Part shown: positions 14,916-59,404 of the stretch, in pieces | Layout of the letters: each line of letters begins with the position of its first letter | Position numbering within the stretch: position 1 is the stretch's first letter | Source: Azolla caroliniana | Taxonomy: Eukaryota; Plantae; Polypodiophyta | Assembly (NCBI GenBank): GCA_043228905.1 | Contig: JBHGNT010000062.1 | Span: 62,001-126,000, forward strand | DNA: 64,000 nucleotides | Direction: 5' to 3' | Position numbers and translations under genes: made by a program | Notes under the pieces: model-generated | What the model was told of the DNA's origin: nothing | The model's database searches: none | The model's input: only the letters and a program-made list of their open reading frames with translations

Positions 14916-14917
14916 AG

Positions 14918-15859: not shown

Positions 15860-15900
<41 letters not shown>

Positions 15901-21940: not shown

Positions 21941-22209
21941 TGCTTGTGAACCCAAGAAGTTTGGACAAGGAGCTTAAGAATCTTGGCTCGGTACGGGGTT
22001 GATGTTCATGTATCAAGCACACAAACTATTTGGTTGGCTAGTGTTAGAGTTAGATCCTAATGTAAGCATGAGGTAAGGAAAAAATATATAGAAAAATAAG
22101 AGAGGAGAGAGAAAGATGGGTGCCAATCCACCCGACCACCCCCGAGCGAAGGGATTGAGACGGACTTGAGCCTTGATCAACGTCCCATACCACTGTTGTG
22201 GCGTCGAGA

Positions 22210-24660
22210 CAAGTATGTCGACGTTATCAAGTGCTAGAGTAGACATGCTTTGTAGATTCTCTCTTCTCCGCTTTCTACTTGTGCCTTCGACATCCTTAAC
22301 CATCTATAAAGAGTACTTCCTAGTAAATGCATCGTTGGAAATGATACCAATGAATCAGAATAGACTTTACTTGATTGCCTTCATCATCCTTAATAATTTT
22401 AGTGATTTTGGCAATCCGGAAGGGATGGCCCAACTTATCACCCCCAGCTAATGTTGCAACCAACATACCAACTTATAGCTCATGTAGATTGCCTTGCCAC
22501 CTTGCCTATGCAACATGCGATAGTCTTGGTCCTGCGTAAATATCTCTTTGTCGTGGGCAAACTATATTATTCAATTCAAGACTATCTAGTGGTTGTAAAG
22601 GAGTTGTGCTCGCCATTTATGGGCCACCAACCACCCATTCGAATTGATTTTGTTGTGGCCAGTACCCTGCAAAGTGGTTATCTAAAATTGTATGTTGATG
22701 ATTAAAGAAGACATCCCACCAATCCACATCATCATCACTAGCGTACTTTTTGGTTCGCTCAATATTTTTCTGTTTTTCCTCAAGGCACTGCATCCAATAT
22801 ATCTTTTGCTCTTCAATTGAACTACCAACAGCCAATCTTTTATGGTCTTCATAGGGCATTTTCTCAACACCATAGATTATTGCATCTGGGAAATGCAATA
22901 AGAGCCTGCATCCGTCTTGTGGCTCCCATTGTAAACTAGATGAGTATTGTTTGGCATACCACATGGTTTGGTTGTGACTGACCACACTTTTTTGGATGAG
23001 GAAGACGCGGTTAAAACTTAAATTATTAAGCGGAGCAAGAACCCTACATCCAGTCCCATCACCATCCAAACAAAAGCATTTGAAAAATCATATACTTCAT
23101 CTAAATGTTGCACATCTGGGTTGGGGGTATAAGCTTCAACGATCAACCTTGATAGCATAGGAAGTGTGAAAGCATCACACCTCGCTAATTTCTTGGAGAA
23201 CCTACTAAACAGTTGATCTATGTGATCATGTGTATGACCAACTAGCAAGAAGTTGACCTTAATTTTTTTGAAAATATCATTGTCAACTAACACGCTCAAA
23301 TAACCAAACACAGTTGGCTTCTTGTTTTCTCTCGTCCTGTTGTCAAGTTGCACGTATAGTACTGGTGGGAGTAAACCTTGCCAAGTCTGGAGAACTCTTT
23401 GCATGACTGCCACTATAAGATTAGGGTCATTGTGGATATTTGGATAAGTTAGGAACACTTGAGGCCTCATTGTTTGACAATACAGAAGACATCCTACTAA
23501 GTGCATCTACACTAGGCATTCATTCATCTCCAACATCCTTGGGCAACCTTCGAAAATGTGGCAAACAAGTTTTCTTCTGATCTATCCCATCTATAATCAA
23601 GCACATATATCTTTCTGGCGATTGATGCGCTTTTTGACAATAGTGCATAGCTTTAGATCTTTCCAACGCCAGGCTTTCTTGATGTTCTCTCAATAAATTC
23701 TTATATTTTGTTATTTCTTCATCTATTATCCCACTCTTTGCCATACTTTTTAAACTCGTGCATATAGAACAAACACCCATCCGCACCTTGCTAGGTATGA
23801 CCACATTGTTAAACTTCGATCTCCATAAACGATTAAAATGTCGATATTGTACGTAAGGTACACTTTCCAATAACATGTCATCCTTATACCTCACGACGAG
23901 TGAAGTTATCTAACAAAGGTAACCTTCCAGTGGTGGGCATAACATCACATTGTTTCGAAAAATATATCTCCATCCATCTAACGGCATGCCGCCCAATTAG
24001 ACCCTTACATGTAGATTTTGTATTGTTGAAAGATACCCACCACGCCTTAAATAATCGATGTTGAATTCTTTGTAGCCTCACCCGATGCTATAGACAAATT
24101 TAAAAGCAACTCGACAACTCTTCATAGTAAATGAAAGGTAATATTCCACCTGCTAAGAACATGGGACTGCCAGATGGTCCTTAACAAGTTCCATATTGGC
24201 AATCAAGAATGTATCTTGTTCATCGCCATTGAGAGACAAATACTTTTGTCACAACCCCTGCAAGTTTGCCTTTCCAAATTTTGATAGACAAGCTCCCACA
24301 ACATACCTTGCATATATCAATTGCAATTTGGCGATCCGAACATAGAAAATTATATCGTTTAACACTCACTTGTCGAGGAACTCTTCGAAAATTTAGAGGC
24401 TTGTTGACATAGTCGTCGTCAACATTCGATAAACTAGACTCGTCATGATTTGTATCTACTTTAATATTTCTTATTTTACCTAAGTTAAAAGGCTCTACCG
24501 AAAAAAGTGACGTCGAACTTTGCTCTCGATCGTCGTTCGACTTTACATAGCACCGTTTATTATTAACATGTTTATATTACTCAATTGAGAATAACGAGTT
24601 ATGAGACAATTTAAAAGGCTCAATAGAAAACAGAGAATTTTTACTCGAGTTTGAGGACAT
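22210..24660 (-). pseudogene. DDE transposase remnant, Sola1-like (DUF7869-type), with BAH-like C-terminal segment
   Basis: CLIIDGIDQKKTCLPHF; LYVQLDNRTRENKK; FLLVGHTHDHIDQLFS; upstream CSICTSLK...REHQ zinc motif; stops and frameshifts. Confidence 0.72.
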
Positions 24661-25040
24661 TTTGAGTAAGGCTAACTAAGATCATGGGATTCCAAAATAG
24701 GCTCAAGTTTAGTTCTATAATAAGCACCATGTCTAAAGACATTTTTTTAAAAAACAAATGTAAATTTTATTTAGAAATAAATAAAAAATAAAAAATAAAA
24801 AATAAAATTATATAAGGGAAAGTCATCTTCATTGTCATTATCGCGTTCAAGCAACAGAAGAGCACAAGAGCAAAGAGCAACCAAGACTTCCAGTTTTCGC
24901 CTCCCTGGTCAAGTCGACACCAATGTCAGTAACATGAACAAGGGAAAGACGATTGCTAGGTATGTTTTCCGAACTCTATTTTTAGATTCTTCAAAGATTC
25001 CCAAAAGATTCCTTTTTGTGTTTGTTGATTTCTGCGTCTT

Positions 25041-25352
25041 GAATTCAATGCTTTCAATCAAGTTCTCATAATTTCAACAAGAACTCGATGCAATACATCG
25101 AGTTCTCGTTGAAAGGGGGGAGAACTCGATGCACTGCATCGAGTTTATATTGCAAAGGGGGACTTTCAACGAGAACGTGATGCACTTGTTGAAAGGGAGG
25201 AGAACTCGATGATGTGCATTGAGTTCCCGTCGAAAGGGTTTTGCTTTCCACGGGAACTCGATGCAATGTAGCAAGTTCCTGTTGAAAGAGTGTTTCTTTC
25301 AATGGGAACTCGATGCACTACATTGACTTCTTGTTGAAAGGGGCGACTTTCA
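25041..25352. repeat. Array of about 7 imperfect palindromes, core GAACTCGATGCA-N-TGCATCGAGTTC
   Basis: Unit cores start at about 25041, 25081, 25122, 25173, 25202, 25254 and 25306; best unit tttcaacaagaactcgatgcaatacatcgagttctcgttgaaa (25072-25114). Confidence 0.85.
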
Positions 25353-25545: not shown

Positions 25546-28500
25546 TGAATCACGACAGAAGGTCCCATCCGTTAAATTGAAGATTCCTCCCCAACAAAAA
25601 AAACTTCTGACACCATGCCCAAGCCTGACTCACAAAAAACGTTGTCGTGCCTTTCGGCTCCGAATTGTTGCATGAGTCGGGTGGGAACCGTCGGGGTTTT
25701 GGACTAGGAGGAGGAAGAATTTGAGACGAATCTAGTTATGAATAGATTTTAAGAAAGAGATCTAAAAACCTCGTGAATCCCACGAGTAGAATGTATTTTA
25801 TTAGATTAATCAATATTAAGATAAGATATGAATTTGGATTGAAAGAGAAGAATATAGAAACCTCGTGAATCCCACGAATGTAATTTTTTAATTGGTGTTT
25901 TTAGAGATATATCCAATTTCCAAAAGATTTCACACTTACTACATTGTGCTCCCATCCTTATATAGTGATGAGAGAGTCTTGGAAATCCATGGTTTTTTCT
26001 CTAATTATGCCCTCCATGTTTTCTCTATCAATAGACTATATGCTTTCTCTAACATGCTTTCTCTAAAGTCATGTGTTTTTTATCGACTATAGTGTTCATG
26101 CATGCTAGATGTGCATGTGTAGCTTTTTCTTTTATCATGGGTTTTCCTAAATTTTATCCTAGCGTGAACTTACCTTTCTATGTGGGACATCTACTTTTTG
26201 ACACTAATGATATGTTAGTGTAATGGTAAGGCTTCATATTATTAACATGGAGGTGCAAGCTTCAAATCTTGCCCTATGCATGTAATATATATTTTCGTCG
26301 TTTTCTTCATATTTATTAAATCGGGTACTTTATATGTTTTTTCATGTAGTGTACGAAATACACTACGACACTTGCCCCCTCCCAACCCGCACATCCTCCG
26401 GTATGTGCCGAAATTACCGGTGCTCGTAATTCTTCTTTACCCGTAGTACCCTCTATTTCTCTCGCTATGTCGACTTTGTCTCTCCATTTTGAACACATCC
26501 ATTCTTTCCACCCGAACCATTGTCTCCATCCGATCCACAATATTCTTCGTTCACTCTTTGCATGGACATGACCGGTTGTCATGACTCCTTGTGCTCTTCT
26601 TCAGCTTAACCCTTCATGTCTCGTGCATCTGCCACCGTCGTTCTGACCATCTCCTTGGTCAAGACACTCGGCACTTCGTCCATCTTTGTTGTATACTCTA
26701 ACGTTCGAGTTGACAATCTTCATGTTAGAACCCTCCTTCTTTGTTGAGATCTCATCCTCGGTAACACCCTTCAAATCCACTTGGCCCTTGTCATCTGTGG
26801 TAGTGTGCCTGCTTGGCCTCTTCCTTGTCTTCATCAATCTCGACTTCTTTCCTGATCGGTCTCATCCGATCGGCTTTCGGTTGGATTGGCTTCCGATCGG
26901 ATTCGTATCCCGTTGAATCGGACTCAGTTGATTGGTTTCAACTGAGTTGGCCCCCTTCCAGGTCAAGTTCGATCTATCGGTTTCGATTTTGGTTCACTTT
27001 CTTTTCCTCGTGTTCACCAGCCTCGACCGGTTCAACCTCCGGTTGAGTCGGATTAACTTTTGTTGTGCCTTTCGGCACCGGATCATTACGTGAGTCGGGT
27101 GGTTTTGGACTAGGAGGAGGAAGAATTTGAGACGAGTTTAATTATGAATATGAATCGATTATAAGAAAGAGAGATTGAAACTTGTGAATCCCACAAGTAT
27201 ATTGTATTAGATTGCATTAATCAATATAAAGATAAGAATATGAATTTAGATTGAAAGAGAGAGATATAGAAACCTAGTCTCAAATTCTTCTTCCTCCTAG
27301 TCCAAAACCCCGGTGGTTCCCACCCGACTCACACAACGATCCAGCGCCGACACAGTTGGTGAACCCGACGTAAAGACGGGTGGAAAGGAGATGGAGAATC
27401 AACAAGAGGCGATGAAAACGATGATGATGATGTTCGAGTGGATGTTACAAGAACAACGGGCGATGTCGAAGATCACGACGGCAGTAAAACGGCTCGTACA
27501 ACGAAACAGACAGTTCAACGGAAAGGATGCATCACACTATCTACGTGACTACAAAATGGAGATGATGCAATGTGGGATACCAGAAGGATTGCAAGTGATA
27601 TCCTTTAGTCGGGTGGCCGCGAATGAGCTACTAGAGAGAATCCACAAGATACAACAACAAAACCCGACATGAGAGGCATATGATTACGAGAGATTGAAGG
27701 GACGAGATCGGCGAGAGTTTGACGAATGGGTGGCATCAGAGAAGACCCACCGAACTACAACACAAGCATTCCTAGGGTTCGAGCATCGTTTTGCTCGACT
27801 CTCGGAGCGGGAACAAAGATTGGAGGGGGAGGATAAAGTCCTAATGTTCGTAAGATCGATCGATCATAAAGAAAGGATGGACATCAGGATTGAACTCGAA
27901 GATAATGACGGTGCAAATGGTCTTACCAAGGATTGTGTTGAAGTCAAAAAAAGTATGCTAAAGACATGATAAAAGGAAGATGAGAATATTGTTGGCAACA
28001 ACATGGCCTATAAGGGATGATCTATTAAGGATGAACAATGTGGTTGATACGAAGGCCGAAGTACGATACATCAGTACTACAGGAGAGGGTATAGAGCAAG
28101 ACATCCTCTTGTCTTGCGAAAGAACGATGGCTAAGGATAAGACCAATGACTTGAGAGTGGCGAACACCACTTCAAGGGTGGAAGAAGGTTTTGGGATACG
28201 AGTGTCCGAAACATCGAGAGACAAAGGGGTAAGCATAATCGATGCTTGCAAGATCGAGGGAGATAAAGAGTGTGAGGCGTACATGACTGAGGAGGAAGTC
28301 ACGAAAGATGACATCGAGTCGGAGGTGGCTATGGATGAGTCAATGGGGGATGCCTGAGGCAAGACTCTCCCAACACAAATACCAAATATTTCGGTAGTTG
28401 CGTTCGAAAAGCAACGTGAGACCGAAGAGACGGAAGGTGGCGGAGAGAAAACGAAGGTCGAACGAAGGTCGATGTCGATGCATACGATGGAGAGATAGCC

Positions 28501-30602
28501 GAGAAGGTGGCTATGGGTGAAACGACGGAGGACGATAACACCGAGGATTCTTGCCCACTAATTCTAGAGACTTCGGTGGTTGTGTTCAAGAACCAACCTG
28601 AGACTGGAGAGACAGGAGGTGGCGGCAAGAAAGGTAAAGTCGAAAGCCGGTTCAGATGGAAAATGATCCGGGCGGAATTCCGATCAGAAAGAAAGCCGAC
28701 CTGAAAGGGGGTCGACTCGGTCAAAACCGATCGACCGAGTCCGATTCGGCCGAACGCAAATACAGATGGAAGTTGACCTAGCCGAAAGCCGATCGAACGA
28801 GAACGATCCTAAAAGAAGCTAATCCGACTCACGCAACAATCCGGCACCGAAAGGCACGACAACGTTTATTGAGTCGGGAGGTGACAGGACTACCCACACT
28901 TTAGGCGAAAAAAGTAGTGGGGAGCCTCACCTGAAGAGCTACCCTCATGTCGAGTGGACATTAATCTATACCCAGGACGAAGGAGATTTGCTCCTTATTT
29001 TTGTAAAATCTAAAGGTGAGGGCAAGTTGCAGGTGGGGAAGACTTTCACCTACGGCCATGTAAAGAACATCGAATACGAAGACAATGACTCATCGAACCT
29101 CTTGTTCGATGTTGATAGCTCGATGGGGACGTGCAGACTCAGGATAGATGAACAAAATTTCGTAACTGACTCGTGCACCCGAAAGCTTTGAAAAAAGATG
29201 TTCAAACCAAAAATAATTTGATTGTTGCTTTCCGCCCTTATATTAAGGGAGAGTTGATGGTCGCACAAGCAACCACACCACCAAAGTCTGCCAATAAATC
29301 AAAACCGGAGCGTAAGAAGTACAAGAAAAGGCAGCATCCCGAGGACGAGCCCGAGGTACTCAAGTTCGTGGTAGATGAGGAGGAAGAAATCGTGTTTGAT
29401 GTTATTCCTCCAGGGGGGGCACATTGCATCAAGAATACTCACCTCAAACCAAAATCAGATCAGAGAAAACATTGTAAAGATGAAGCTTGTCTATAAAGGA
29501 AAACTATTTCACTTGCCCATCTCCTCTATTTAGAGGCCACCCATTGATCCTGAAATAGCAAGACGAGCTCTAGAAATAAGAGAGAGACATTTAGTGCATG
29601 TGAAAAACTTAAAAAGCAAAATGAAGATAAATTCACATGCCACTGTAGTGCCATTCTTAGTAATGGTAGACCCTAATCAGTGCCCAACTATTGTTGACTT
29701 TAAGTACAATTTGGTTGACAACTACACATACTACGTGATTGGAGGATCCCACTCTGCTGAATCTCGACGTCAACTTGTGAAGGAGTATCCTCTTACCCCA
29801 TTCTTCAAATATGCATAATGTAAAGTGTACGTTGGCCTTAGACATGAAGAAGCCAAGTTGTTAGTTTGGGGTCATAAAAATGATAATGACTACATATATT
29901 AGAAGATGTCATGTATGTATCGAGTGCATCAAGTTCTTCCATCACGAGTACCTTGATGCATTGCAAAAATTTGGTCCTAGGTTGCATCCTGGATTGCAAC
30001 GACAATGTCTGCTTGAAGTGGGGATAACAGTTGACGAAAGCACTAGGTCTGAAGGCCTAAGGAAATATGACTCGTGGTTTCAACTTGTGTTGAGAACAAG
30101 GGAGGTGTGGGACCTCCAAGATCAAATTTTTAGTATGTGGGAGCGGAAAGAAATAAAGGGTCAAAGATCAAAGAAGGCTAAGCTCAACCCACAAGTGGAG
30201 ATGAAGTCTAAGTCACATAAAAGTGACTTAGTAATTGAAAACTTAGCTGAGGATATGAAGCTGCTTCCTTGGCGGACATTGCAAGGAATCAAAGATGACA
30301 GATTATTAATATTTGTATTATCAAGAGTGGTCGTCAAGGAGTTCAGCCTTGATGAAATGGTCACAGAGTTTCAAAAGTGAGTATTCTATGTGATGACTTA
30401 TTTTCATTGTATTGTGGGAATAATTTGCTCTTTATAATAACCTTACTTTCTTTTCATTTTTAGCCATAAGGTTTATATGAAGATACAAGAGTTGATGATG
30501 AAAACATTGTCCTTGCCTACATGGGAAGAGGTGGAGCAATCGTGCCCCAAAACATCATCATACAAGGCTCTTGAAGAATTCTTCATTGTGTTTAGAGAAT
30601 GG
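25546..30602 (+). pseudogene. Intron-containing gene with a ParB/sulfiredoxin-like domain, interrupted by a Gypsy insertion at 25643-28861
   Basis: Removing the insert plus one ACGT restores KPDSQKTFIESGGD... in frame with ORF 28988; core LEIRERHLVHVKNLK...VVPFLVMV...YYVIGGSHSAESRRQL...CKVYVGLRHEEAKLL; GT-AG intron 30377-30463 in phase; next donor at 30603. Confidence 0.6.
25643..28861. mobile_element. Rearranged Gypsy composite with opposed LTR fragments, tRNA-Trp PBS and decayed gag; 4-bp TSD ACGT
   Basis: acgt|TGTCGTGCC...GGCACGACA|acgt; LTR segment repeated at 25643 and 27061; inverted LTR end 27276-27352 followed by tggtgaacccgacgt; gag FNGKDASHYLRDYKMEM and FDEWVASEKTHR. Confidence 0.8.
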
Positions 30603-31299
30603 GTATGTATGTTGTACAAATATAAAACACCACCTAGACCAATATGCCCCATCTCCTCCTCCTTGGCCATGATTCACATTGCTTGAGGCGAGTCAATCAT
30701 ACAAGAACTTGATTTTGATGGTATAGTCATTGACAAACATATGTTTTTGTTGTATGGACTTCACTTCTGGTTAGAGTTGAAGTTTTTGTGTGATTGTGTC
30801 GATGGATAAAATGTTTCGTGAGGTTCTTCCATGCCCCCTTTTGTTATCTTCACATCTGTGACATAGCCAATCATATGGTCATAGTATACTTTACATGGCT
30901 CACTAGACCATATGATGTAGCATATGGTCTAGTATACATTATGTGGCTCCCAAGCATATGGTCTAACAAGGCAAAGCATTAGATGGATCACTCCTTGCTT
31001 CCATTCACAATTATATGTATTGATAATGGCAAACATGTTTTGACAATCACCTTCAATGTATCCCCAATATGCTTGCCCCAAAAGGTATCGATGGATCTTG
31101 TATATCCATGATGCAAAAGTGTTGTGGTATGGAAACTTCTATCCTTGAGGAAAGCTACCCATTTGTTGATTCGTGCAATTCTTCTTTGTGTGGTAGTGGT
31201 TTCTTCTTCTCTTCTTGTTGGCTTCTTCCTTGTTTCACAACACGTGAACAATAGAGCAGTAGCTCTTCCACGCACAAGCTACAATGTCATGCTATGATT

Positions 31300-35204: not shown

Positions 35205-36109
35205 GCACCAAACCCTAACTCGTAGGTATCTATCTCTTTCGAAGCCTACACAACTTCTAGATTTGTCTTTTCTTTTCTTTCTACTACACTCTTCTTCCTT
35301 TGTTTCTTCTCACGCTCGGCTTCTGAGCTATGGCACTCGCATAACCACTACTATGTTAGCTCTCTGTCGTTCTCTATATCGCTCTACTCTTGCAACACCT
35401 TCTATTATACCTTCCCGCGTTCACTTAGACACATAACTTCACTTTCACGATTTTACTCACTGTTTTTATTCTCAATGAGTTATCCAACATACAAATGCAA
35501 CTAGTTCGACTCACTATATATACTAACTCATCTCACATACATATATATGAATACATATATATATGTGTATATGTTCGTTCGAACTTCTATTTGACCGAAT
35601 CCCATTTCATTTCGGCTTTCTTACCGAATTTGGCCAACCAACTCTCGTTTCGGCTTTTCGGACAATTTTGGTCAGCCAACTCATTTCGACTTCTCAACCG
35701 ATTTCGACCGGCCGACTCTCGAGTCGACTTTTCGGCTGACTCACCCACAAGCAGGGACAACCTTTCATAACACTCTTATTTCGCAAATCTTGTTTCTTTT
35801 ATAATTTTGCTACATAGCACTGCAGCCCATTTCTGTAGGCTTTACATGGTTCCAGCACAAAAAGAAAAAAGAAAAAAGAAAACTGACACAACTTAATAGC
35901 TCACGACACAGGCTTAAAATGTACACAACGCGAGAGTTTTCTTAATTAGTAATGATGGTATGTATAAAATACAGTGGGAAAACCATTGTTCCGATACTTT
36001 TAATGATCTGTGGGAAGGGGTAAATCAAGGCTATTATTAATGCAATATGGACAGTGCAACTTATTGATCCTGACCATATACATACATACATACATGTATT
36101 ATGTATTAT

Positions 36110-36160
<51 letters not shown>

Positions 36161-36276
36161 ATCCATCATTATTCTTCATTCATAACAGCCAACGAAATGG
36201 CGGCTCAACAGTATATAGTGCAAGAAACACAGACAATATTCATAATAATGGTGATGGTGGAGAGGACTAAATCTGA

Positions 36277-39200
36277 CTACAGGCTGAAGCTCACAGAGTG
36301 GAAGTGCAGGAGGGCCCCCCTGCTGCCTTCCGAAGATTTGGATGTGTCCGGGGCAGCATAGAAGGGGCGGAAAGGCGAGCATCTCTTGCATTCCCTGGCA
36401 ATGTCCTCTTGCATGCTCTCCGATCCCGACACCAGAACTCCCACACATTCCCCACGGTGTTGCTCCACCAAGCCCTCGAAGACATCTGCCAATATTTTGG
36501 ACCATCAAATTTAGAAGAACTACACATTCATTGCTTGACATGCTTCATTCTCAGGGGCAATTCATTCATGCATCAATTCAGTGCCATATATAATCCCAAG
36601 TCCACTACAGTATAGCATACATAGCACATTCCTGAGTAGATGGTTTCAAATAGCTATTGCATGATATTTGAATTAACTAGTGCTTTATTCAGCCAGAGGA
36701 TGAGATCATTGAGCTAGAAAATTCTGCACAAATAGTACTATATATTCGTATATAGTGACTGCAGCTTGAATAGAAGGGATTAAAATTTCAGAATTGGGGT
36801 AATCTACCTGTACTCATATATTCACAAACTTGTATATGTAGTAGTACTACTCTTACCAGGTTAAAGAAGATACCACATATATTCACAAATGCTTATGTTA
36901 TGAAAACATACTTAACTTTCTTGGCGTAACGAATGCTTATGTTTTTTCTTTAACGTTTTTAACCTTTAAAACTTTTTTGCCCTAATAAAAAGTTTAGGGT
37001 TTAGGGTTTAGGGTTAGATGTGGACCCTATGATGCCAACCTACCTTTCCAGTTTGGCCGTGACAAAATGTGCACATCCCCATCCCACTGAGATGCGCCAT
37101 CTTCGATTCCGTTGTAAGTTGCTCCCAAATCTTCGTTACTTCCGGATGGAGAAGAAGTCGGACTCTGTGTCCTCGGCTGCACCGATGCCGAGCTTATACT
37201 CGATTGTCGTCGCAACATATGGAACCATAGCAGAACCACGAGGCCGCCACAAATGAGAATCCCCAAGATCATGCACGCCACCACGACATGCGCGCGATTG
37301 TAATTGGTGAAGGTGTGATGGGCATAGGACCTCACAATAAAAGTGTTTGCCAAGCCTGAAAGCACAAAGTATCCTGCAAAGGATGCAATGGTGGTTAATG
37401 CTACCCATGAGGTGCTCCCTGTGCTGCCAATGCTCGAGATTCTTCCATCGGATTGTGGGTGTTGTGCCGCCGGATAAGAGGAATCAAATATCAATGGTTG
37501 TGATGTAGGGTGTTCACGGTTAAACTTGGATAGGTCCAAGGATTGGCCTATTCTATATGAATTATGGGCCGTGTTGCCACCGGATAATGGCACTCCCTCA
37601 TAATCTTGTATGTTCTTCGAGGTTATGTATACATGTACTCGGATGCGCAGTCCTAATGTCTCATAGCCAGGGAGAATTTGGTTAGGATATAGGGTGTTTA
37701 GCACACATAACTCCTCTGGCTTTCTTATGCAGTGGTAGAGTGTGATGGAGGTCGGAAGAGTAGTCGATGCCGGTGAGGATCTAACGTCTTTGTATCGATA
37801 CAAGATATCACGGATTATAGCGAGGGCAGGGGTGAGGCCTATGCCCCCGGCCACGATGACTAGGGCTTTATACCTGCGAAATATTAATCATGTACATTAC
37901 ATTAATTAATGGAAGCAACTCGTTAATGTGAAGGCTAATTATATCAATGAGGAACGACAGACATGAGCTTTGGGAACTGAATCGAGACCAGGAATTACGA
38001 CAAATAATTAGAGAGATCCCCATACTTTAGGTAGAAATCGGACTCATCGCCGTAAGGACCTTCGACTCTAGCCTTAAACGAGAAAGGGCAGGAACCCCCA
38101 GTTTTCTTGGCACTTGAGAATTGATCGCGCAAACTATTCGTCCATTCGCCGAGAGGCTTGATTACGATGGAGAGCTCCTGCGTGTTATCGAGAGGGGACG
38201 ATGCGCCACTGAAGAAGTGCCACTGTAGTTTGGAGATACCAGGAATCTGGATGCACCATGTGGAGAGTGCATTATAGAGTGGGGTCCCTGACATAAGTAA
38301 TGATCACATTATTGCCTGTTATTAGTAAAGGTTAGAAGAGCTCACTGACTGAATTTAGTCAGAGAGATTCTGGAATATTAATTAATATGTGAATCCGAAC
38401 AAGCACACATACATGAAAGAGAATCCATTTATGTTACCTTTGGTGGCATTGGTGTTAAGAGGCAGCAAGAGCTCGACTGCGCCATTCTGGAGGAGCTTGG
38501 CCGAGGATACGCAGACAACACTGGACGATTGGATCATGCGAAGGAAGCGATCGATGAAGAAGAGCATGAGAGGGACGATGAAGAAATGATAATTCCAGAC
38601 CGCGTGATACAGCCAAAAGAGGGAGAAGAGGAGATACAGGTGGTGGACCGAGAAGAATATGTCGTAGAAGCGGCGACGGACGAAGGACAGGGAAGTGGCC
38701 CACATGACTAGACCGAACACCCATGCCACCAGCCCGGCCACTACCGCACATTTTTCTTGCTTCGTGACCCACCCAAAGATCTAACAACAAGAAGCAAAAA
38801 ACTAATTATGTCCCTATCATGATATGATCAAACACACTCAAGTACAATGAATGCATCATGATGGAGAAACCACATGAGCCCTAGCATAGGTTGGCCGTTG
38901 GGACATCATCCGCGTTAAGCCTTGTAACATTACGGTAATATTGGGCGAGACAGTGAGCGCGGAATACTGCATGATTTGAACCTACCAAATCCGTACGGTT
39001 GGTGTTGGCATAGAGAATGATGTAGCCGAGGCTATGGAGGCTGACGAGAACAAGCATGGAGACGGCGAGCCAGATGTGGTAGCGCACGGCGCGCTCGAAT
39101 GGGATGCCTACCAGCCGAAGCAACGGCGAGCCGCGCGACACGGGGATCCAGAGCAACGAGAATGGCACGACGGCCACGCGTCCGAAGTAGAAGGATACAT

Positions 39201-40266
39201 TATTCAATTTCTGCCATGGCCTGCAATATCAATGGAAAACATGAGTGCTTATTATGTACACTCTTGTCACATCTGTTCGAGCTCACGAAGGCCTCCTCGT
39301 ATATGTGACTGGGAATTTAACAAACAATGTGAGCTTGGAGATGGTGTTCAAAGCATGAATGTGTGTCTGTCTGTCTGTCTGTCTGTCTGTTTGAGAGAGA
39401 GAGAGAGAGATATGGTTATGTCATGATCGTAGTAGGACGTACTTGGCGGGGGGCGGGCCGGAGCCGTGGTGGTGCTGGGTGTTGTTGTCGATGCGGGTGA
39501 AAGCAATGTTGACGATTCTGCTGAAGTGGTAGATCATCAACAAAGTTATGGCCAGAATTCCGACAAGCTCCGAGGCCGTGAGGATGCCGAAGGGGCTCTT
39601 GTCCACCCACACCGGGTACGTACTCATCTGCCATTGGTTTTTCCAGCCCTTTGCACCCGCGGGCACCACAACACGGAGCTGTCCAGTCTTTGCTTTGATG
39701 AATGCGCGGAGCCGGATCACAACGAAGCTCAGAATGGTGACGACGAAGAAAGGCATGGTTTGGTATATGAATGTCGAACCTAATGGATGGATGCCATAAA
39801 TATATCAGTTTTAAGTAGGAGGGAGCTGATCAGTTGACAAACCATATATATGCATACACATATGCATTATGCGATCACTAATTATATTATATTACTTGTA
39901 GGAGGTGTACTGTAGAGATTTGTCTGGCAGAGATTGATAATGAGGGGCTTAGTTACCTTCACGACCATCGGTCCGAAAGAAGCGAGAGTGGGATTTGTCG
40001 CCGATCCACGACTCCACGTATTTCTTGTCTCCTTCTGGATCGGGCGCGACAAACCACCATAATACCCAAAACACACACGCGGCCACGATTACCGCTTCCG
40101 TGACCGCTTTTGCCACCTTCGCCCGCCGAATTGCCCCCATCAATCTCTCATCATCCTCATCTCGGCCATGGACGACCGCCGCAGCCTCCTTACCTGCATC
40201 AATCCTCGCGTTAATGCCACAGGATATAAAACTCTGCAGCCACACGGCAAGGAGGCCAAAATCCAT
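36277..40266 (-). CDS. FRO: Ferric-chelate reductase / ferric reduction oxidase, copy 1; exons 40266-39957, 39779-39443, 39220-38986, 38780-38438, 38287-38026, 37873-37044, 36485-36277
   Basis: PVSRGSPLLRLVGIPFERAVRYHIWL, WATSLSFVRRRFYDIFFSVHHLY, VEGPYG, VAGGIGLTP, HFHSVSFSL stop; exon limits mirrored from copy 2. Confidence 0.93.
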
Positions 40267-40754
40267 CCATAGGAGGCACAAACAACAACAACAACAACAA
40301 CTGCTACTTCTCCAACATACTCATCGCGAATTAATCGAGAAGTTAACTGCCGAAAGATGCGCGAAACTCAGTTGATTCTATGTACGGCAATGTTGTTGAT
40401 CATTAGGGAGAAGAATGAGGAGGGTAATGATGCTCGAGCAGACAAGCCTTAAACCACACAGATCCTGTTAAGGACAAAAGTGGAGTGTGTTATATATATA
40501 CATATACTTGCATGATACGGTTGGGTTGACTCTGGAGAACAGCTACCCACTAGGTAGTAGTACAACACTGGTACTGCATGGGTTGTACTAATGTGTTAAG
40601 TCAACTGGTATTTGCAAAGGGCCTCTCATGTCCCCATAAAGACAATGCTAAGGACGAAAAATAGATTCAACAAAATATGTATATAAATTCGTTCGTGTGC
40701 TGGGCGCTGCCCGGGTCTACCCTTGCACACTTCCCGTCCCTTCGTGTAAATTAC

Positions 40755-41960
40755 ATAATCACAAGAATTGCACCATATTTGTTGGGTATGGAAAATCTCA
40801 TGGCTACAAGGGTTATCAATTTTACATTGACCTAAATGTCAAACGATATTTATTTAGTCAATCACCGATGTGCGATGAAGATAGCCTAATATCTCATACA
40901 TGAAAAGACACAAGCTACAACTACCATACCAAACCCCTCAAACATCAAATCCAACAAACAATATCATCAACTAGTACTTTTAAATAGGCTCCGCTAGCTT
41001 CCTAAAAAATCAAAGTCATAATTGACAACATGCTCATCGAACATCTTCAATGAATATTCACATCACTAGACGCTCAACCACATATTTCCCCTTTAAGTAA
41101 TGACTCATCTCTAATAAACAAATAATCATTACAAGGAGAGCCATATGCTCCAATTACAAATAATAGTAATCTTACCCAAACTAGAAAGATATCTAATCAT
41201 GATCTAAATATTCATTACGACAAGGGAAAGGAAGTTCTTAGGAGATCATCAATAAGCCTGGATTGCACTTGAAAAACATGTTGTATTGTACTTAGCCATG
41301 CTTTGGTAGATATGTATGCAAAATGTGGTGCAATAATGAATGTCTATGGCAACCTAAGAGCAGTTGAGAAAAAGTAAAAATCCATGATCAAGTTAAGAAT
41401 ATTTGGAAGTGTCCATCATTGTATCATTTAAATCACTTTAGACATAATATACACCATTGTTGGAATAAAAAACATTCATAATATACACCTAACTCACCTT
41501 GATTATTCATGTTTCCATTCTCGCAAAAGCTCCTTTATCCCATTAAGAAGATCGTCACGAGTCTATGGAATAGACCATGACATCAGTAACAAAGGATACC
41601 AAAATAATCAAATTACTAGGGTGTACAAATGCCTCTTATCCCGTCTAATGGAGAATGCATGGAACATACCAATAATTTTCACATTTTAGCACTAAGAAAT
41701 TAGATGATCTTTAGTTCACTTTCTTTGCAATTAGCTCCCGCTCACTTATATCAAACATTCTTGACGATTCAGTCATTATCAATGAGGCAAAACAATGTAG
41801 AAAGGAAAGCCATTACGGAAAAAGAACTTGAAACTCTCTCTTTGTCAACAAAAATGGATTCTAGTACCACTCCTTATAGGCCACTTGCCTATCTCATGCA
41901 AAGAAAAAATTATGTAACTCTAATGGTACAATAGTATGCCATCAAGCTCGGCTAATGGCT
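40755..41960 (+). mobile_element. Highly degenerate Copia remnant (integrase tail to RT start) containing a PPR fragment
   Basis: IFVGYGKSHGYKGYQF at the start and ARLMA at the end; inverted homologue at 51871-53135. Confidence 0.7.
41218..41400 (+). pseudogene. PLS-class PPR gene fragment
   Basis: DKGKEV..EII.KPGL..KHVV..L.HALVDMYAKCGA followed by GNLRAVEK..IHDQV, with frameshifts. Confidence 0.7.
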
Positions 41961-42128
41961 TTAGATTATTAAACACCCTTAATACTTAAATGTTCTTATG
42001 TCACTTTAAGATCTTAAGGGTTTTAGATTAATTAAACCAATTGGATAGATTAAAGAACTTATACTCAAACGAAAAGTTTTTATACTTCAAAACAATATGT
42101 CACTTACAAATACAAACAATTATACAAA

Positions 42129-42703
42129 TCACTCTATTAGGAGGTCTGGAACAAGTTGTTGTCGAAGATCAGCTGGTTGTTGTGTCATATCCGCTTGTTC
42201 TGTTTGCTGAGCTCAATCTTGTATTAGTTCAGACTATGGTACATCCACGAGGTCGACAAGGTCCCCTCCATCTTCATCTATAGGTTCCATCGGTTCTCTA
42301 GAGGTCAACTAAAACATCTCAATTTCATTGATATGCCCATATACCTTGGATCCTCATTTTAATAAAATTAACTTGTGAGGGGTCTTTCTCCAAGGTGACA
42401 TAGTTCCGGAACAATTTCAGAAAACATGCGGTCGTTGTTCCTGAATAAACAATCGTAAATGCGTAAGTAAGAAAACAAAGTCGAGAAAATCAATTTTATA
42501 TGAAGATAAATTGATCATACTTATAAGAATAGCTGTTCTAGAGAATAAGTTGAGCACCCAATCATCAGAGTTGGAGAGCAACTCGATCAATTGCTTTATC
42601 AAACATTGGGGCTTTTGGTACGGGTTAACTAGACACTTGTCACCAGAAACATGGCGTAACTTCTTCGTCATAGCTAGGCGCATGATATAATTTACGATGT
42701 TTC
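42129..42703 (-). pseudogene. C-terminal fragment of a beta-class N6-adenine/N4-cytosine DNA methyltransferase, split by a 92-nt intron (42532-42441)
   Basis: Spliced translation VNPYQKPQCLIKQLIELLSNSDDWVLNLFSRT-G-TTTACFLKLFRNYVTLEKDPSQVNFIKMRIQ parallels the family pattern HPTQKP..L...I...S..GD.VLDPFxGxGTT..A.KLGR..IG.E.D; acidic tail follows. Confidence 0.75.
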
Positions 42704-42704
42704 G

Positions 42705-43357
42705 TATTGAACACCAACGGGCATGAGCGACCATGTGCAGTCCTCGCCTAGGACTGGATCACGAATACCAACGGGCATGAGTGACCATGTGTGGTCCTCA
42801 CCGGGAATTGGAACATGAATAGCAGCAGGCATGAGCGACCATATCAATCCTCGCCTCGATCTCGAACACAAACAATAGTTGGAGTGAGCGACAATGTACG
42901 ATCCTCATCGGAGATTGGAACACAAATACCAATGGGTGTAAGTGAGCATATGCGGTCCTCACAAGGAACACGAAAACCAATGGGAATGAGAGACCATGTC
43001 GGTCCTCACGGAGAGATGGAACACGAACACCAACGGGTGTGAGCGACCACGCGCCCCTCACCGAGAACTAGAACACAAACGGATGTGAGAGACCATGTGG
43101 CCCTCACCGAGAACTAAACACGAACAGGCGTAAGCAACCATGCGGCCCTCACCAAGAGTTGGATCACGAACGGATGTGAGCGACCATGTGTGGCCCTCAT
43201 CGGGAACTGGAACGTGAGCGACCATGTGCGGTCCTCATCGAAAACATGAACGAGCGTGAGCGACCATGCGGCCCTCATTGAGAACTGGAACATGAATGGA
43301 CGTGGGCGACCATGCGGCCCTCACTGAGAACTGAACACGAACGAACGTGAGCGACCA
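42705..43357. repeat. Minisatellite, about 14 degenerate units of roughly 38-54 bp
   Basis: Recurring gagcgaccatgtgcggtcctcaccgagaactggaacacgaac; period shortens from about 54 to about 44 bp left to right. Confidence 0.9.
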
Positions 43358-43364: not shown

Positions 43365-43950
43365 CCTCCAACTGGTGCACACAGATATATGTGGTCCTTT
43401 GTCTACCCCATCCCTATCTGGAAATGTATATTTCCTAACATTTATCGATGACTTTACTCGTTTCACGATGGTCACATTTCTCAAGACAAAATGTAGTGAT
43501 CAAGTCCTTGAGAAATTCAAAGCCTATCATAAACTTGCAACAAATCAACAAGATTTACCCCTTAAAGTACTCCAATCAGATAATGGTGGAGAATTCAAGT
43601 CCCAAAACTTCCAAACTTATTGCCAAAACCATGGGATTCAACAATGGTTTACCATCCCATATACACCCCAACACAATTCAAGGGCTGAACGACGAAACCA
43701 GTTGTATATGGCTGCCACTCGTTGCATGCTCGCCGTTGCAAACCTTCCCCGAACATATTGGGAAGAGGTTGTTTCAACCGCTTGTTACATATTCAATAGA
43801 ACATATAGTCAATCCACTAGGACAACTCCATTTTCCTTATGGTTTGGAAAAAATCCTAATTATGAAAATCTAATAATCTTTGCATGTCCATCATATGCAC
43901 TCGTACCCTTAGAAACTTGATCAAAATTAGATAATCACGCCGCTAAAACC
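43365..43950 (+). pseudogene. Copia integrase core fragment
   Basis: LVHTDICGP, YFLTFIDDFTR, LQSDNGGEF, PYTPQHNSRAERRN. Confidence 0.9.
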
Positions 43951-43975: not shown

Positions 43976-44155
43976 TGAAGAAAATAATAAGCAAAATAAA
44001 GTAAAATAAATTATTATGTAGTTCTTATTTAGTTCCTATGAAATCGGTTTCCTTCATGAGAAGGAAACCGTATGTCTATTTGTGGTGGCCTTATAAAGCC
44101 ACCACCACCAACGTTTGTATGAATGGCATTATACTAATAATAAAGTTTCTTTCTG

Positions 44156-44204
<49 letters not shown>

Positions 44205-44246
44205 TTCTATCTCTCTTTCTCTTTCATTTCTACATGGTATCAGAGC
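43976..44246 (+). mobile_element. Copia LTR (43976-44234) with tRNA-iMet PBS (44235-44246), preceded by a PPT-like tract
   Basis: aggggggag|TGAAG...CTACA|tggtatcagagc; homologous to the LTR at 15822-16081. Confidence 0.88.
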
Positions 44247-44413
44247 CTATGCCTATGCCTTTCTAAATTACAAAATACATGCCCTTATCATAAGTTAAGT
44301 TTCATGCCCATACAAAAAAAAAAAAAACTATATATTCATAGTGTCCAAGATCGTCAAATAACGAACGACAATTTGTGTTTGCCGTGCGCTGATCCGGACA
44401 GCCCTCTGCAATA

Positions 44414-47400
44414 ATGGCACAATCTATGTCGTCGTCGCAACTCAACATGCGAAAGTTCACGATCGAGAAATTGTCGGACACAAATTACCGAATTTGGAAG
44501 GCAAGATTAGAATTACTTTTTAAATATAATAAAGTATGGGACATAATTTCAGGATCGTCGACAAAACCCGAAAAAGGCGAAGAGCTTGAAGAATTTGAAG
44601 AAAAAGACTTGTGTGCAAGAATGGAAATTCTAATGCACGTAAGTGATGGCACCGGAGAAACATTACGAAAAATGGAGACCGCTCAAGAAATGTGGAAGCA
44701 CTTACAAACTATCTACGAACCAAAGAATGACGCCCAACAAGCACATACACTCCAAGCTCTTGTTAATTACAAGATGATTGACGAACAACCGGTTGGTGAT
44801 TTTCTATTAATGTGGCAAAAGAAATTAGATGATGTGTTAACTTCTGGATTGGAAATCCATGATAAATTACAAAAGATTCTCCTTCTTGGTGCTCTTCCTC
44901 ACTCGTGGTCCACTTTCCGAACCACCCAAAACTCTATAAATTGCCCAACGCTAATTGATCTTCTTGCAAACATTAGACAGGACGAAACAATGCGTTCACA
45001 AAGGTCTTCAAATTCAACTCCAAGTATGGCAATGGTAGCATATAAGAACAAAAGGTTCACCCAAAGAGGAGAAAGCTCGAAGCCGTGGATAAAGAAAGAT
45101 CAAAACACTAAACAAGGAGAAATGCGGTTCAACAATACCTATTGTAAAATATGCAAACGTACAAATCATGCAACCAAAGATTGTCGCGCAAAGTCAAATT
45201 TCAAGAGTTATCAACCATGGAAGCGTGTACAAGCCCATCTTGTTGAAGAAGAGATGGATGATGAAAAAGCCATGGGAGGTGGACATCGAAATGGTGACAC
45301 GTATGACGATGTTCTACAAGCGTTCATTGCCGAATCACTTTCCGCCACGATTCCAAATCCAAGTAATGCAAATGACATGTGGTATCTAGACACTGGTGCT
45401 ACTAACCACTTAACTAATAGAAAAGATTGGTTAAGTAATTATAAGGAAGTTGAACCTCCTATCATTGTAAGATTTGGAAATAATGGGACTAAACAAGCTA
45501 TTGGCAAGGGTAATATTACTTTTGAAGTCACAGGAGGAAGACATTTCACAATCAATGAAGTTCTCTATGTCCCGGGCATCACCAAACATTTGCTATCGGT
45601 TAGCCAAGCAACGGCAAATGGTACAATAATTGAATTTCATCCTAACCATGCTATTATTAAACATAAAGCCTCAAATGGAGAACTTATTAGAACATGTTGT
45701 AAACGAGAAGGAGGCTTATATCCCATAAAATGTATTCCTACATCTCTTATTTTAGAAGCACATCATACTACCCCAATACAATCCTCCATATCTTTAACCA
45801 ATCTTCATTCTCCTTCTTCTCTTTGGCATTTTCGTCTAGGTCATATGCATTTCAATGCTCTAAAAACACTACAATGTAATAATCTAGTCCATGGTTTGCC
45901 AAAAGAACCTTTCAAGCCTATCTCTTTGTGTGAAAGTTGTATCTTTGGGAAAATGCCCCAACAACCCTTCCCAAAGCATAGATCTAGAGCCACTAACCCT
46001 CTTGCATTAGTACATAGTGATCTATGTGGTCCTTTTCCAACCCCTTCTCTTAGTGGAGCCAAATATTTCATTAGCTTTATCGATGACTTTAGTCGATTTA
46101 CAATCTTGCATTTTCTCAAGTACAAGAGTCAAGCTTATCAAGCATTCAAAGAATACAAGGCTCGAGTCGAAGTGCAAACATCATCAAAGATTAAAAGTCT
46201 TCAAACCGATGGTGGTGGTGAGTATGTGTCTCATGAGTTTCAAAGTTTATATCAAAATGAAGGCATACATCATAGAATATCAACACCACACACACCACAA
46301 CAAAATTGTGTATCCGAAAGGAAGAATAGATCACTTCTCAATATGGCTCGAAGTATGTTACAATTTGCTCACTTATCGCCTCAATTTTGGGAGGAAGCGG
46401 TTGGCACCGCTTGCTATATTCAAAATCGAGGATTTCATAGGTCTTTGGGGCTCCAAACCCCTTATGAATTATGGCATGGTCACAAACCTAACCTAAGTAA
46501 TCTTCGTATTTTTGGTTGTGATGCTTATGCTTTTGTGCCAAATGTTCAAAGAAATAAGCTAGATCCAAGGGCTACAAAATCAATCTTCATCGGATATGGA
46601 GAAGCTTCGGGATACAAGGCGTACAAGCTCTTCGATCCACAAAAACAAAGAATATTCTTTAGTCGTAGTGTGATATTCCAAGAAAATGGGCCTTCTACAA
46701 AGGTTTCTTCTTCACTATCTTTTAATCTACCTCCCTTATTACCTACCCCTAATTACTTACAACCATATTCCTCAACCATCTCTAATACTAATAGCTCTCA
46801 TATTGAAGGAGCCAACATTGGCTCATCCTCTACTTCCACAATTTGTGTTGCTCTTCCATCTATTCACAAGGCCAAGAACAATCCTACTCAACCAACTAAT
46901 TCTTCTTCTCATCCTCCCTCATTCCAAACTCTAGATGATTCTCTTCCTCATACTCCTTTAAATACACACTATTTAACCCCCACTAATAATACAAATAATG
47001 TTATCTTCTCCACTCCCTCTCCTAATCCTTCATTCCAAGTGTCATCACCAACTTCTCCACCAAACTCTCCACCTCCAAAGTATAGATCTCTAAGTAGTAT
47101 TTATGAACAACTTGATCAAATGGAAGCACATTTCGTCGACTTGGACCATGAAGCTTATATTCAAGAAGAAGATATTCCAACCCTTGGTGATGACACAAAT
47201 CTATCGGCCAAAGATGCACTTTCCGGACCGGATTCTATCAAATGGAGAAAGGCTATGGAAGAAGAAATGAAGGCTTTACTTAAAAATGGTACGTGGACCC
47301 TCGTTGAGCCTCCAAAGGATCGACAAATAATTGGTTCTAAATGGGTCTTACGCATAAAGCGAGATAGTAATGGCAATCCAATTCGCTTCAAGGCTCGTGT

Positions 47401-54379: not shown

Positions 54380-55254
54380 GGGATTGATGTCATGTGGGCC
54401 GTGATAAGAATATAATAACACTTCGAGTCGAGTCTATAATTACTACGGCATAAGCTATGCCGAACATCATGTCATATAACATTATCATGACTCAATGTTG
54501 CAGTTACTAGTGGGATGAATGTGAAGGATCATGATAAATGACGCTCAACTTACATGGGCAGATCTTTATAACTAACCACTCTCATTCATTACACATGCAC
54601 TACCCACACTCTAAGTTCGATCGTTCGTAGCTAGAGAATGGCGAGCCAAAACTAATTATTAATGTGTGATAAGTTTGGGGGCAAGAAACTACTCGTGAAA
54701 TAACAACTTCTTGGTTGGAAGAAGCAAAATTAACACGAAGGGAAGGGAAGCGTGCAAGGGTCGACCCGACTAGCGCGCGGCACACGGACGAATTTATATA
54801 TTTTGTTGAATCTATTTTTCGCCCTTAGCATTGTCTTTATGCGGACATGAGAGGCCCTTTGCAAATCACTAAGTATCGTCCAAGATAAAAGCAGCCCATG
54901 CGGTACGCAGTTGACTTAACACATAAGTACAACCCATGCAGTACCAGTGTTGTACTACTACCTAGTGGGTAGCTGTTCTCTAGAGTCAACCCAACCGTAT
55001 CATGCAAGTATATGTATATATATAACACACTCCACTTTTGTCCTTAACAGGATCTGTGTGGTTTAAGGCTTGTCTGCTCGAGCATCATTACCCTCCTCAT
55101 TCTTCTCCCTAATGATCAACAACATTGTCGTACATAGAATCAACTGAGTTTCGCGCATCTTTCGGCAGTTAACTTCTCGATTAATTCGCGATGAGTATGT
55201 TGGAGAAGTAGCAGTTGTTGTTGTTGTTGTTGTTGTTGTTTGTGCTTCCTATGG

Positions 55255-59246: not shown

Positions 59247-59362
59247 TCAGATTTAGTCCTCTCCACCATCACCATTATTATGAATATTGTCTGTGTTTCT
59301 TGCACTATATACTGTTGAGCCGCCATTTCGTTGGCTGTTATGAATGAAGAATAATGATGGAT

Positions 59363-59364
<2 letters not shown>

Positions 59365-59404
<40 letters not shown>

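What the first reader, a model, noticed from the sequence alone, without database searches (positions are those of the whole stretch)
42129..42703. Bacterial-type beta-class amino-DNA-methyltransferase fragment with a spliceosomal intron in a plant genome
Seen: PYQKP..LI..LI...S...DWVLNLFSRT, then after a 92-nt AT-rich intron ending ttcag, (G)TTTACFLKLFRNYVTLEKD...IKMRI. Single G-to-A reversions give LDLFSGTGTT, the SAM-binding motif I. The donor reads CT rather than GT, so this copy is dead. Established: C-terminal HPTQKP followed by FxGxG is the architecture of beta-class N6A/N4C methyltransferases such as CcrM, and horizontally acquired members deposit 4mC in bdelloid rotifers and Marchantia. 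Inference: an intronised, transposon-borne DNA amino-methyltransferase family exists in this genome. The catalytic DPPY/SPPY half is missing, so 6mA versus 4mC cannot be called.
Basis: partly seen in the sequence, partly recalled or inferred. Interest (0 to 1): 0.85.

Follow-up and report, generated by a model that had tools for sequence, protein, structure and literature searches.

The report
Plant transposon carrying its own methylase
This is a dead fragment of an intron-containing, bacterial-type DNA methyltransferase gene that intact relatives carry inside a high-copy cut-and-paste transposon of plants, where the protein likely binds palindromes in the element and likely puts a methyl-adenine mark on it; the same two-gene design was already reported from a brown alga.

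Summary
It is the 3' end of a beta-class amino-methyltransferase gene with a 92-nt intron (42532-42441, CT..AG). All 70 scored relatives have a GT donor there; only this copy has CT. The copy is dead: its 5' part is missing, motif I is damaged, and the last exon has a 35-nt deletion and stops.

Intact relatives are about 6-8 kb transposons with terminal inverted repeats. They carry a DUF7869 DDE-fold transposase head-to-head with a six-exon gene of about 970 aa: a ParB-like domain plus the methyltransferase. Motif IV is DIPY in 58 of 64 loci, not SPPY, and dN/dS is about 0.04. Helically phased palindromes lie in the predicted first intron. Homologues occur in Chara, Riccia, ferns and Ginkgo. 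Pieces of what is probably a second copy lie at 22.2-30.6 kb.

The layout, 4-bp target duplication (seen in 1 of 4 two-ended loci) and ends resemble Sola1-1_Ec32 of Ectocarpus (2025), so this is a new member of a known kind. It is not a Marchantia or rotifer 4mC-type enzyme. Self-methylation, probably 6mA, is inferred; activity and expression are untested.

The parts
42533..42704 (-). 3' part of the penultimate exon of the methyltransferase gene (NPYQKP segment and damaged motif I); cut off at 42704 by an unrelated high-copy tandem repeat
42441..42532 (-). 92-nt intron at a family-conserved position splitting motif I; donor reads CT (GT in 70 of 70 scored relatives); 89% identical to the intron of L020
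42129..42440 (-). last exon: end of the SAM-binding region and acidic tail, with a 35-nt deletion and stop codons
42034..42128 (-). remnant of the element's 3' untranslated region; no terminal inverted repeat found beyond it
22209..24402 (-). decayed DUF7869 transposase of the same transposon family, probably a different copy from the 42-kb fragment
24934..24959 (+). predicted short first exon of the ParB-methyltransferase gene (second copy)
25085..25326 (.). five palindromes of the family consensus TCGATRC-N3-GYATCGA (0-2 mismatches), inside the predicted first intron
25546..25643 (+). start of the long second exon, interrupted by a 3.25-kb insertion (25642-28897) with LTR-like direct repeats
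28898..30376 (+). rest of the long exon with the ParB-like domain, with stops and frameshifts
30377..30626 (+). 87-nt GT..AG intron, short third exon (30464-30602) and start of the next intron; homology ends at 30626, so the motif IV exon is absent from the window

Best explanation
The finding is a dead 3' fragment of a spliced-type gene that intact relatives carry head-to-head with a transposase inside a cut-and-paste transposon, and its product, a ParB-like domain fused to a beta-class DNA amino-methyltransferase, likely binds the element's own palindrome array and likely writes N6-methyladenine on the element to keep it expressed or mobile. Shown by sequence: the six-exon layout with GT..AG introns, terminal inverted repeats with varied flanks, the transposase link, motif order IV-then-I, DIPY and FSGTG motifs, strong purifying selection, and the palindrome array. 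Predicted by structure models of relatives: CcrM-like and ParB-like folds and a DDE transposase core. Inferred and untested: splicing and expression, catalytic activity, binding to the palindromes, adenine as the target, and a benefit to the element. I put the identity of the fragment at about 0.95 and the full self-marking 6mA mechanism at about 0.5.
For: Element: L002 has 37-bp ends, 97% complementary, 7.6 kb apart, and L039 has 34-bp ends. A right end was found in 34 of 80 loci, nearly all with different flanks. L033 has a 4-bp duplication at its ends that keeps the interrupted Gypsy reading frame. The transposase is head-to-head with the gene in 6 of 80 loci, and most other contigs are too short to reach it. 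In Riccia sorocarpa the methyltransferase R1sor_010796 and the DUF7869 gene R1sor_010795 have adjacent locus tags. Enzyme: DIPY in 58 of 64; 40 of 48 spliced catalytic regions are open; median dN/dS 0.037 over 23 unsaturated pairs of 351, against 0.13-0.15 for three transposase pairs. The model of relative P0110 matches CcrM (Z 24.1, rmsd 2.7, 219 aligned) and PadC ParB (Z 9.4, rmsd 3.2, 99 aligned). In CcrM the first proline of DPPY is the equivalent of an N4CMT proline that contributes its main-chain carbonyl (PMC10406627, passage), so Ile there need not abolish catalysis (inference). Target: 71 CGAT-N7-ATCG sites in 17.3 kb upstream of the long exon against 0 in the other 132.8 kb of 24 loci; spacing is in phase with 10.5 bp (R 0.75, n 51); 22 of 22 sites in six loci fall in the predicted first intron. 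Abundance: 4424-6585 contigs per DNA run lie on L019, over all 30 bins.
Against: No activity, methylome or binding data exist here. DIPY departs from canonical DPPY, and some distant homologues have lost the aromatic residue (DIPH, DLPR, DIPS). A target duplication was seen in only 1 of 4 two-ended loci; the others may be collapsed assemblies, but that was not shown. L036 has the transposase in a different arrangement. Only 1 of 3 named Riccia methyltransferases had an adjacent transposase tag among the 120 listed hits. Differences among copies are dominated by C>T and G>A and CpG observed/expected in intact elements is 0.57-0.82, so copies are not immune to host cytosine methylation. Other eukaryotic transposon-borne adenine methylases gave no 6mA in E. 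coli, and streptophytes are described as lacking abundant 6mA (10.64898/2026.05.21.726589, passages). The folded protein is a relative about 34% identical to the clade's long exon, not the clade's own protein.
Confidence: 0.55

Rival explanations
1. The same element and self-targeting, but the mark is N4-methylcytosine. It would go on CG cytosines such as those in the palindrome arms and block host 5mC.
For: The N6_N4_Mtase domain has switched between 6mA and 4mC repeatedly (PMC8885841, passage). By fold, the N4C enzymes N4CMT and PvuII score Z 20.1, close to the N6A enzymes at Z 20-24. Every palindrome arm contains CG (by definition of the search). Asp-first N4C enzymes such as M.BamHI exist (recalled, no call).
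Against: No member read has SPPY; motif IV is Asp-first in 58 of 64 loci and in nearly all readable distant homologues. The sequence profile prefers N6A enzymes by about eight orders of magnitude in E-value.
Confidence: 0.17
2. The protein is mainly a DNA-binding regulator or scaffold. The ParB-like part binds the array in its own first intron to set expression of the two divergent genes or to help assemble the transposition complex, and the methyltransferase fold is inactive or acts on RNA.
For: The array lies between the two genes and inside the gene's own predicted first intron. The ParB-like region is highly conserved (71-100% identity over 294 aa among the 23 closest hits). Motif IV is non-canonical. 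Related folds moved to RNA several times in eukaryotes (PMC4738411, passages).
Against: Both motif IV and the SAM-binding motif I are held almost invariant across three clades with saturated synonymous sites, which is hard to explain for an inactive domain. No RNA-binding domain was found.
Confidence: 0.15
3. The enzyme is active on the element, but the mark restrains transposition (copy-number control), as Dam methylation does for some bacterial insertion sequences (recalled).
For: Purifying selection and self-targeting fit either direction of effect.
Against: The family has reached very high copy number, and 6mA is linked to active chromatin in the eukaryotes studied (10.64898/2026.05.21.726589, abstract passage).
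Confidence: 0.1
4. It is a decayed copy of a domesticated host gene like Marchantia DN4MT1, or bacterial contamination, and not transposon cargo.
For: Host-domesticated beta-class enzymes exist in Marchantia and rotifers. Most relatives came from metagenome assemblies.
Against: Conserved GT..AG introns, shared terminal repeats with varied flanks, thousands of matching contigs, junction contigs joining the fragment to flanking plant retroelement DNA in three runs, and named homologues in plant genome assemblies.
Confidence: 0.03

Closest known systems
Sola1-1_Ec32 of Ectocarpus (PMC12477816; main-text passages and supplement table rows seen)
   Same: A second gene on the strand opposite the transposase, encoding a ParB-like domain plus an N4C/N6A methyltransferase domain (1104 aa there, about 970-980 aa here). 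4-bp target duplication. Ends begin AAC (AACCG..CGGTT there, AACAC..GTGTT here). The authors propose self-binding and self-modification. Its best transposase hit is listed as Sola1-1_PPa_tp, which by the name I read as a moss element (inference).
   Different: Brown alga against streptophyte plants; 21.5 kb with 282-bp ends against about 6-8 kb with 34-37 bp ends. The passages seen give no motif IV, intron map, selection test or palindrome array.
Red-algal Plavaka accessory genes PAG2 and PAG3 (10.1101/2025.02.11.637652; passages seen; supplements not seen)
   Same: A DNA transposon carrying a PF01555 methylase and a ParB-like protein, with tandem inverted repeats next to the ParB gene proposed as its binding sites.
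   Different: There the methylase is fused to SET and the ParB-like domain to a 2OG oxygenase, in separate genes, on EnSpm-type elements. Here ParB and methylase are one protein on a DUF7869 element.
Bacterial beta-class N6-adenine methyltransferases CcrM, M.BceJIV, M.MboIIA, M1.HpyAVI, M.RsrI
   Same: Fold (Z 20-24), motif order IV then I, PxQKP segment before FxGxG.
   Different: 13-21% identity; DIPY instead of DPPY; long N-terminal ParB-like region; introns; transposon-borne.
Marchantia MpDN4MT1a/b and bdelloid N4CMT (10.1101/2021.02.12.428880 and PMC8885841; passages seen)
   Same: Beta-class amino-methyltransferases of prokaryotic type in eukaryote genomes; N4CMT also has introns.
   Different: They bear TSPPY/SPPY, write 4mC and are host genes (no extra domain, or a chromodomain). 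This family is Asp-first, ParB-fused, multicopy and mobile.
DAM-carrying DIRS and LTR retrotransposons (10.64898/2026.05.21.726589; passages seen)
   Same: Transposon-encoded prokaryotic-type adenine methylases proposed to favour the element's own activity.
   Different: Retrotransposons, NPP-type catalytic motif; the LTR type is reported absent from Streptophyta. The terms Sola, ParB and PF01555 had 0 occurrences in the main text.

Membership tests
beta-class DNA amino-methyltransferase (PF01555) | catalytic motif IV lies N-terminal to SAM-binding motif I | tested here: met
   in spliced intact relatives DIPY precedes FSGTG; the window copy itself lacks the motif IV exon
beta-class DNA amino-methyltransferase (PF01555) | motif IV of the (D/N/S)PP(Y/F/W) type (consensus recalled) | tested here: inconclusive
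   DIPY in 58 of 64 loci: Asp, second Pro and Tyr kept, first Pro replaced; it aligns with CcrM DPPY
beta-class DNA amino-methyltransferase (PF01555) | motif I FxGxG | tested here: met
   (L/M)DLFSGTGTT in 53 of 63 rows; damaged in the window copy
beta-class DNA amino-methyltransferase (PF01555) | permuted Rossmann fold like CcrM/RsrI and Pfam score above cut-off | tested here: met
   model of P0110: CcrM Z 24.1, rmsd 2.7, 219 aligned; P0052 65.7 bits and P0110 39.9 bits against cut-off 26.7; the window exon alone scores 17.8
beta-class DNA amino-methyltransferase (PF01555) | SAM-dependent methylation of adenine N6 or cytosine N4 in DNA | not testable with these tools
   needs an assay or methylome
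Sola1 DNA transposons | transposase with an acidic catalytic triad in an RNase H/integrase fold | tested here: met
   D355, D436, D478 invariant or nearly so in 81 homologues; model matches integrases, Metnase and Mos1 at Z 9.1-9.6, rmsd 2.8-3.6
Sola1 DNA transposons | terminal inverted repeats | tested here: met
   37 bp in L002, 34 bp in L039; none left in the window
Sola1 DNA transposons | 4-bp target site duplication | tested here: inconclusive
   present in L033, absent in L002, L030 and L039; 4 bp is listed for Sola1-1_Ec32
Sola1 DNA transposons | transposase clusters with Repbase Sola1 transposases | not testable with these tools
   no Repbase sequences available; the defining paper was not held; DUF7869 has 0 hits in the paper library
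Sola1-1_Ec32-type ParB-methyltransferase cargo | single ParB-like plus N4C/N6A methyltransferase protein on the strand opposite the transposase | tested here: met
   6 loci head-to-head; PadC Z 9.4 and KorB Z 8.7 for the N-terminal part
Sola1-1_Ec32-type ParB-methyltransferase cargo | sequence homology to the Ectocarpus protein | not tested
   sequence not obtained
Marchantia DN4MT1 / bdelloid N4CMT (4mC writers) | SPPY catalytic motif | tested here: not met
   DIPY in 58 of 64 loci, no SPPY seen
Marchantia DN4MT1 / bdelloid N4CMT (4mC writers) | low-copy domesticated host gene | tested here: not met
   multicopy, bounded by transposon ends

The most novel reading that the evidence does not exclude
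A streptophyte-wide lineage of DNA transposons, from Chara to ferns and Ginkgo, runs a self-contained bacterial-style epigenetic system. A ParB clamp loads at a parS-like array in its own first intron, spreads along the element, and deposits 6mA that counters host 5mC silencing. It would be a genuine, locus-specific source of DNA 6mA in land plants, which are described as lacking abundant 6mA, and a programmable load-and-spread methylation module.
Probability: 0.3. Interest if true: 0.8.

Novelty: new member of a known kind. Interest (0 to 1): 0.48.

Why it matters
Whether land plants have real, enzyme-written DNA 6mA or 4mC outside Marchantia sperm, and whether transposons write their own protective marks, are open questions. 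This family supplies intact candidate enzymes under strong selection and a precise predicted address (the palindrome array), so existing long-read data could test the idea directly. The design itself has been proposed for algal transposons. What this adds is the plant range, the catalytic motif, the selection evidence and the array. The window's own copy is inert.

Tried and rejected
No whole genome is held for this window, so paralogues were read from metagenome loci and laid contigs instead. The window exon alone found nothing in solved structures. No RNA holder was listed; the one guessed-RNA run laid gave 4 contigs on L019 with no splice joint and 0 on the window, which says nothing about expression. 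No terminal repeat was found in the window.

One broken copy flipped by the neighbouring inversion: considered and judged unlikely but not excluded. The 30-kb piece is closest to L026 and L019 (94%, 91%; L020 87%), while the 42-kb piece is closest to L020 (88%; L019 80%, L026 70%) and groups with L020 at support 98. Capture of the fragment as cargo of a spreading Copia element: not supported, as the junction contigs have depths like other unique contigs.

CpG observed/expected as a test of protection was uninformative. An independent empty Gypsy site to confirm the duplication length was not found, and removal of 1, 4 or 7 bases all keep the frame. Pfam found no ParB family on the long exon; the assignment rests on the fold search, and the Atlas gave DUF3723 as a lead. 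Foldseek gave no match at E 0.001 or better for the transposase. The careful tree did not finish; the quick tree has long branches and cannot place a bacterial donor. The host lineage was not determined.

Paper searches that found no description of this family in land plants. PMC10294476, PMC4455052 and PMC12344493 (passages) added nothing on this family. Not seen: the paper defining Sola, Iyer et al. 2011 cited for green-algal cases, the Cell version of the Marchantia paper, Repbase entries and bioRxiv supplements; any of these may already note the gene.

Full report
Observation. The described sequence is present on the minus strand: exon remnant 42704-42533, a 92-nt intron 42532-42441 beginning CT and ending TTCAG, and a last exon 42440-42129. 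The exon alone gives a sub-threshold PF01555 hit (E 0.0035). A protein search found 15 relatives among 20 candidates at 66-79% identity; nearly all run into unrelated sequence right after the FSG motif, as expected for gene calls crossing an intron. Of 24 aligned members, 22 hit PF01555. Contigs of two DNA runs cover the CT donor without mismatch, and contigs of three runs bridge the junction to flanking retroelement DNA near 41961; one of these runs may be the window's own source.

Intact relatives. A scan of metagenome contigs matched 176 stretches, 99 confirmed, of which the best 80 were kept. Four downstream intron positions are conserved, with GT..AG in 49 of 49, 48 of 50, 63 of 67 and 62 of 71 scored rows; the counts for the first and last include window pieces, and the window is the only row with a non-GT donor at the last intron. 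A short first exon and first intron are predicted in the six loci examined, giving six exons and about 970-980 residues. Motif IV reads DIPY in 58 of 64 loci covering it; the other six are visibly damaged copies. Motif I reads (L/M)DLFSGTGTT in 53 of 63 rows. Of 48 loci where the catalytic exons could be spliced, 40 are open. After removing near-duplicates, 27 sequences gave 351 pairs; 328 were set aside as saturated, and the 23 left have median dN/dS 0.037 (range 0.018-0.475). Three unsaturated transposase pairs give 0.13-0.15 and one very close pair 0.23.

The element. L002 is complete: 37-bp inverted ends at 180 and 7773, an 897-codon DUF7869 frame on the minus strand, and the methyltransferase gene on the plus strand. 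The head-to-head layout recurs in L004, L030, L033, L039 and L057; L036 differs, and L009 has only a short hit in its flank. Right ends were found in 34 of 80 loci, with different flanks apart from two identical pairs. A 4-bp duplication flanks L033 and is compatible with the interrupted Gypsy frame; L002, L030 and L039 show none. The three end types follow the three methyltransferase clades. The transposase has conserved D355, D436 and D478, a model of mean pLDDT 80.8, and matches integrases and mariner transposases at Z 9.1-9.6. In three DNA runs that hold the window's fragment, 4424-6585 contigs lie on L019 across all 30 bins, the motif IV exon included; this shows many copies but is not a copy number.

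The protein. A model of P0110, a 789-aa relative (mean pLDDT 81.8), matches CcrM (Z 24.1), M.BceJIV (23.1), M.MboIIA (21.8), N4CMT and PvuII (20.1 each) in its C-terminal part, and PadC (9.4), KorB (8.7) and other ParB/sulfiredoxin folds in its N-terminal part. The family profile scores N6-adenine enzymes at E 7e-17 to 2e-14 and N4-cytosine enzymes at 7e-7 to 4e-6. Named homologues come from Ginkgo, Chara braunii, Riccia sorocarpa, Adiantum nelumboides and Ceratopteris richardii, with motif IV variants DFPY, DLPY, DAPY, DVPY, DPPY and a few lacking the aromatic residue. In Riccia one methyltransferase gene has the locus tag next to a DUF7869 gene, and P0110 and a DUF7869 protein both come from an 8915-bp JGI contig, probably the same one (inference from equal length).

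The array. Inverted repeats between the two genes appeared; earlier notes prompted a systematic count. CGAT-N7-ATCG occurs 71 times in 17,305 bp upstream of the long exon and 0 times in the other 132,777 bp of 24 loci; 20 of the 24 have at least one, and the rearranged L051 was left out. Other spacer lengths from 3 to 11 give at most 4 sites against 86 for 7. The consensus is AANTCGATRC-N3-GYATCGANTT, and 51 spacings are in phase with a 10.5-bp period (R 0.75; no shuffle control was run). All 22 sites in six loci lie in the predicted first intron; the acceptor in L030 is uncertain.

The window. Besides the 42-kb fragment, the window holds a decayed transposase (22209-24402), the short first exon, five palindromes (25085-25326) and the ParB exon split by an insertion (to 30626). 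The motif IV exon is absent. The two pieces have different closest relatives and are probably separate copies.

Mechanism. The simplest reading is that the ParB-like part recognises the phased palindromes, as ParB proteins recognise inverted repeats (10.1101/2025.02.11.637652, passage), and so brings the methyltransferase to its own element. Adenine is the likelier target, given the Asp-first motif and profile scores. The benefit is most likely kept expression in a host that silences with 5mC. All of this is inference. Rivals are 4mC, a non-catalytic regulator, and a self-restraining mark.

Comparison and novelty. PMC12477816 (passages and supplement rows) describes Sola1-1_Ec32 with a 1104-aa ParB plus N4C/N6A methyltransferase gene opposite its transposase, 4-bp duplications and AACCG..CGGTT ends. 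It proposes self-modification and cites similar proteins in green and red algae. I reached that paper through earlier scan notes and read it myself. Nine paper searches found no description of the family in land plants, but Repbase, subscription papers and bioRxiv supplements were not seen. Verdict: a real feature, a dead copy, and a new plant member of a known design. Interest 0.48.

Noticed in passing
window 32599-40752 and 54728-62915: An 8.2-kb inverted duplication, 98.8% identical, holding an intron-containing ferric reductase oxidase gene and a Copia remnant.
   Followed up: partly
window 40747-41961 and 51870-53145; 43385-43938 and 53130-53827: Older inverted matches (69-87%) of Copia-type sequence next to both inner borders of the duplication, which may mark an older, larger inversion.
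   Followed up: no
window 42709-43357: Tandem repeat with a 46-54 bp unit that abuts the break in the methyltransferase fragment and is highly repeated in the runs laid.
   Followed up: partly
window 43980-48330: Largely intact Copia element with polypurine tract, LTR and primer-binding site read by eye; a related LTR-gag stretch lies inverted at 14916-16077.
   Followed up: no
L002:510-3200 (-), model residues 729-837 of P0196: The transposase ends in a confident all-beta domain that the fold search did not test; it looks like a chromatin-reader type domain by eye only.
   Followed up: no
P0183 and P0201 (Ceratopteris richardii): The fern's ParB-exon protein and transposase are 56% and 54% identical to those of L030, about as close as the clades are to each other; possible horizontal spread among non-flowering plants.
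   Followed up: partly
L002:3721-5439 (+), residues 255-573: The ParB-like region's nearest Atlas clusters are fungal DUF3723 proteins (score 0.96), a lead that DUF3723 is a related ParB-like domain.
   Followed up: no
P0110: A 789-aa uninterrupted gene call for the whole ParB-methyltransferase protein suggests intron-free versions in other lineages.
   Followed up: no
L030:11900-14500: Long nested inverted repeats downstream of the element, and an open frame at 3-539 with a cysteine cluster and no Pfam hit.
   Followed up: no
window 21226-21498: DUF659 fragment, of the kind found in hAT transposases (association recalled), just beyond the decayed transposase.
   Followed up: no
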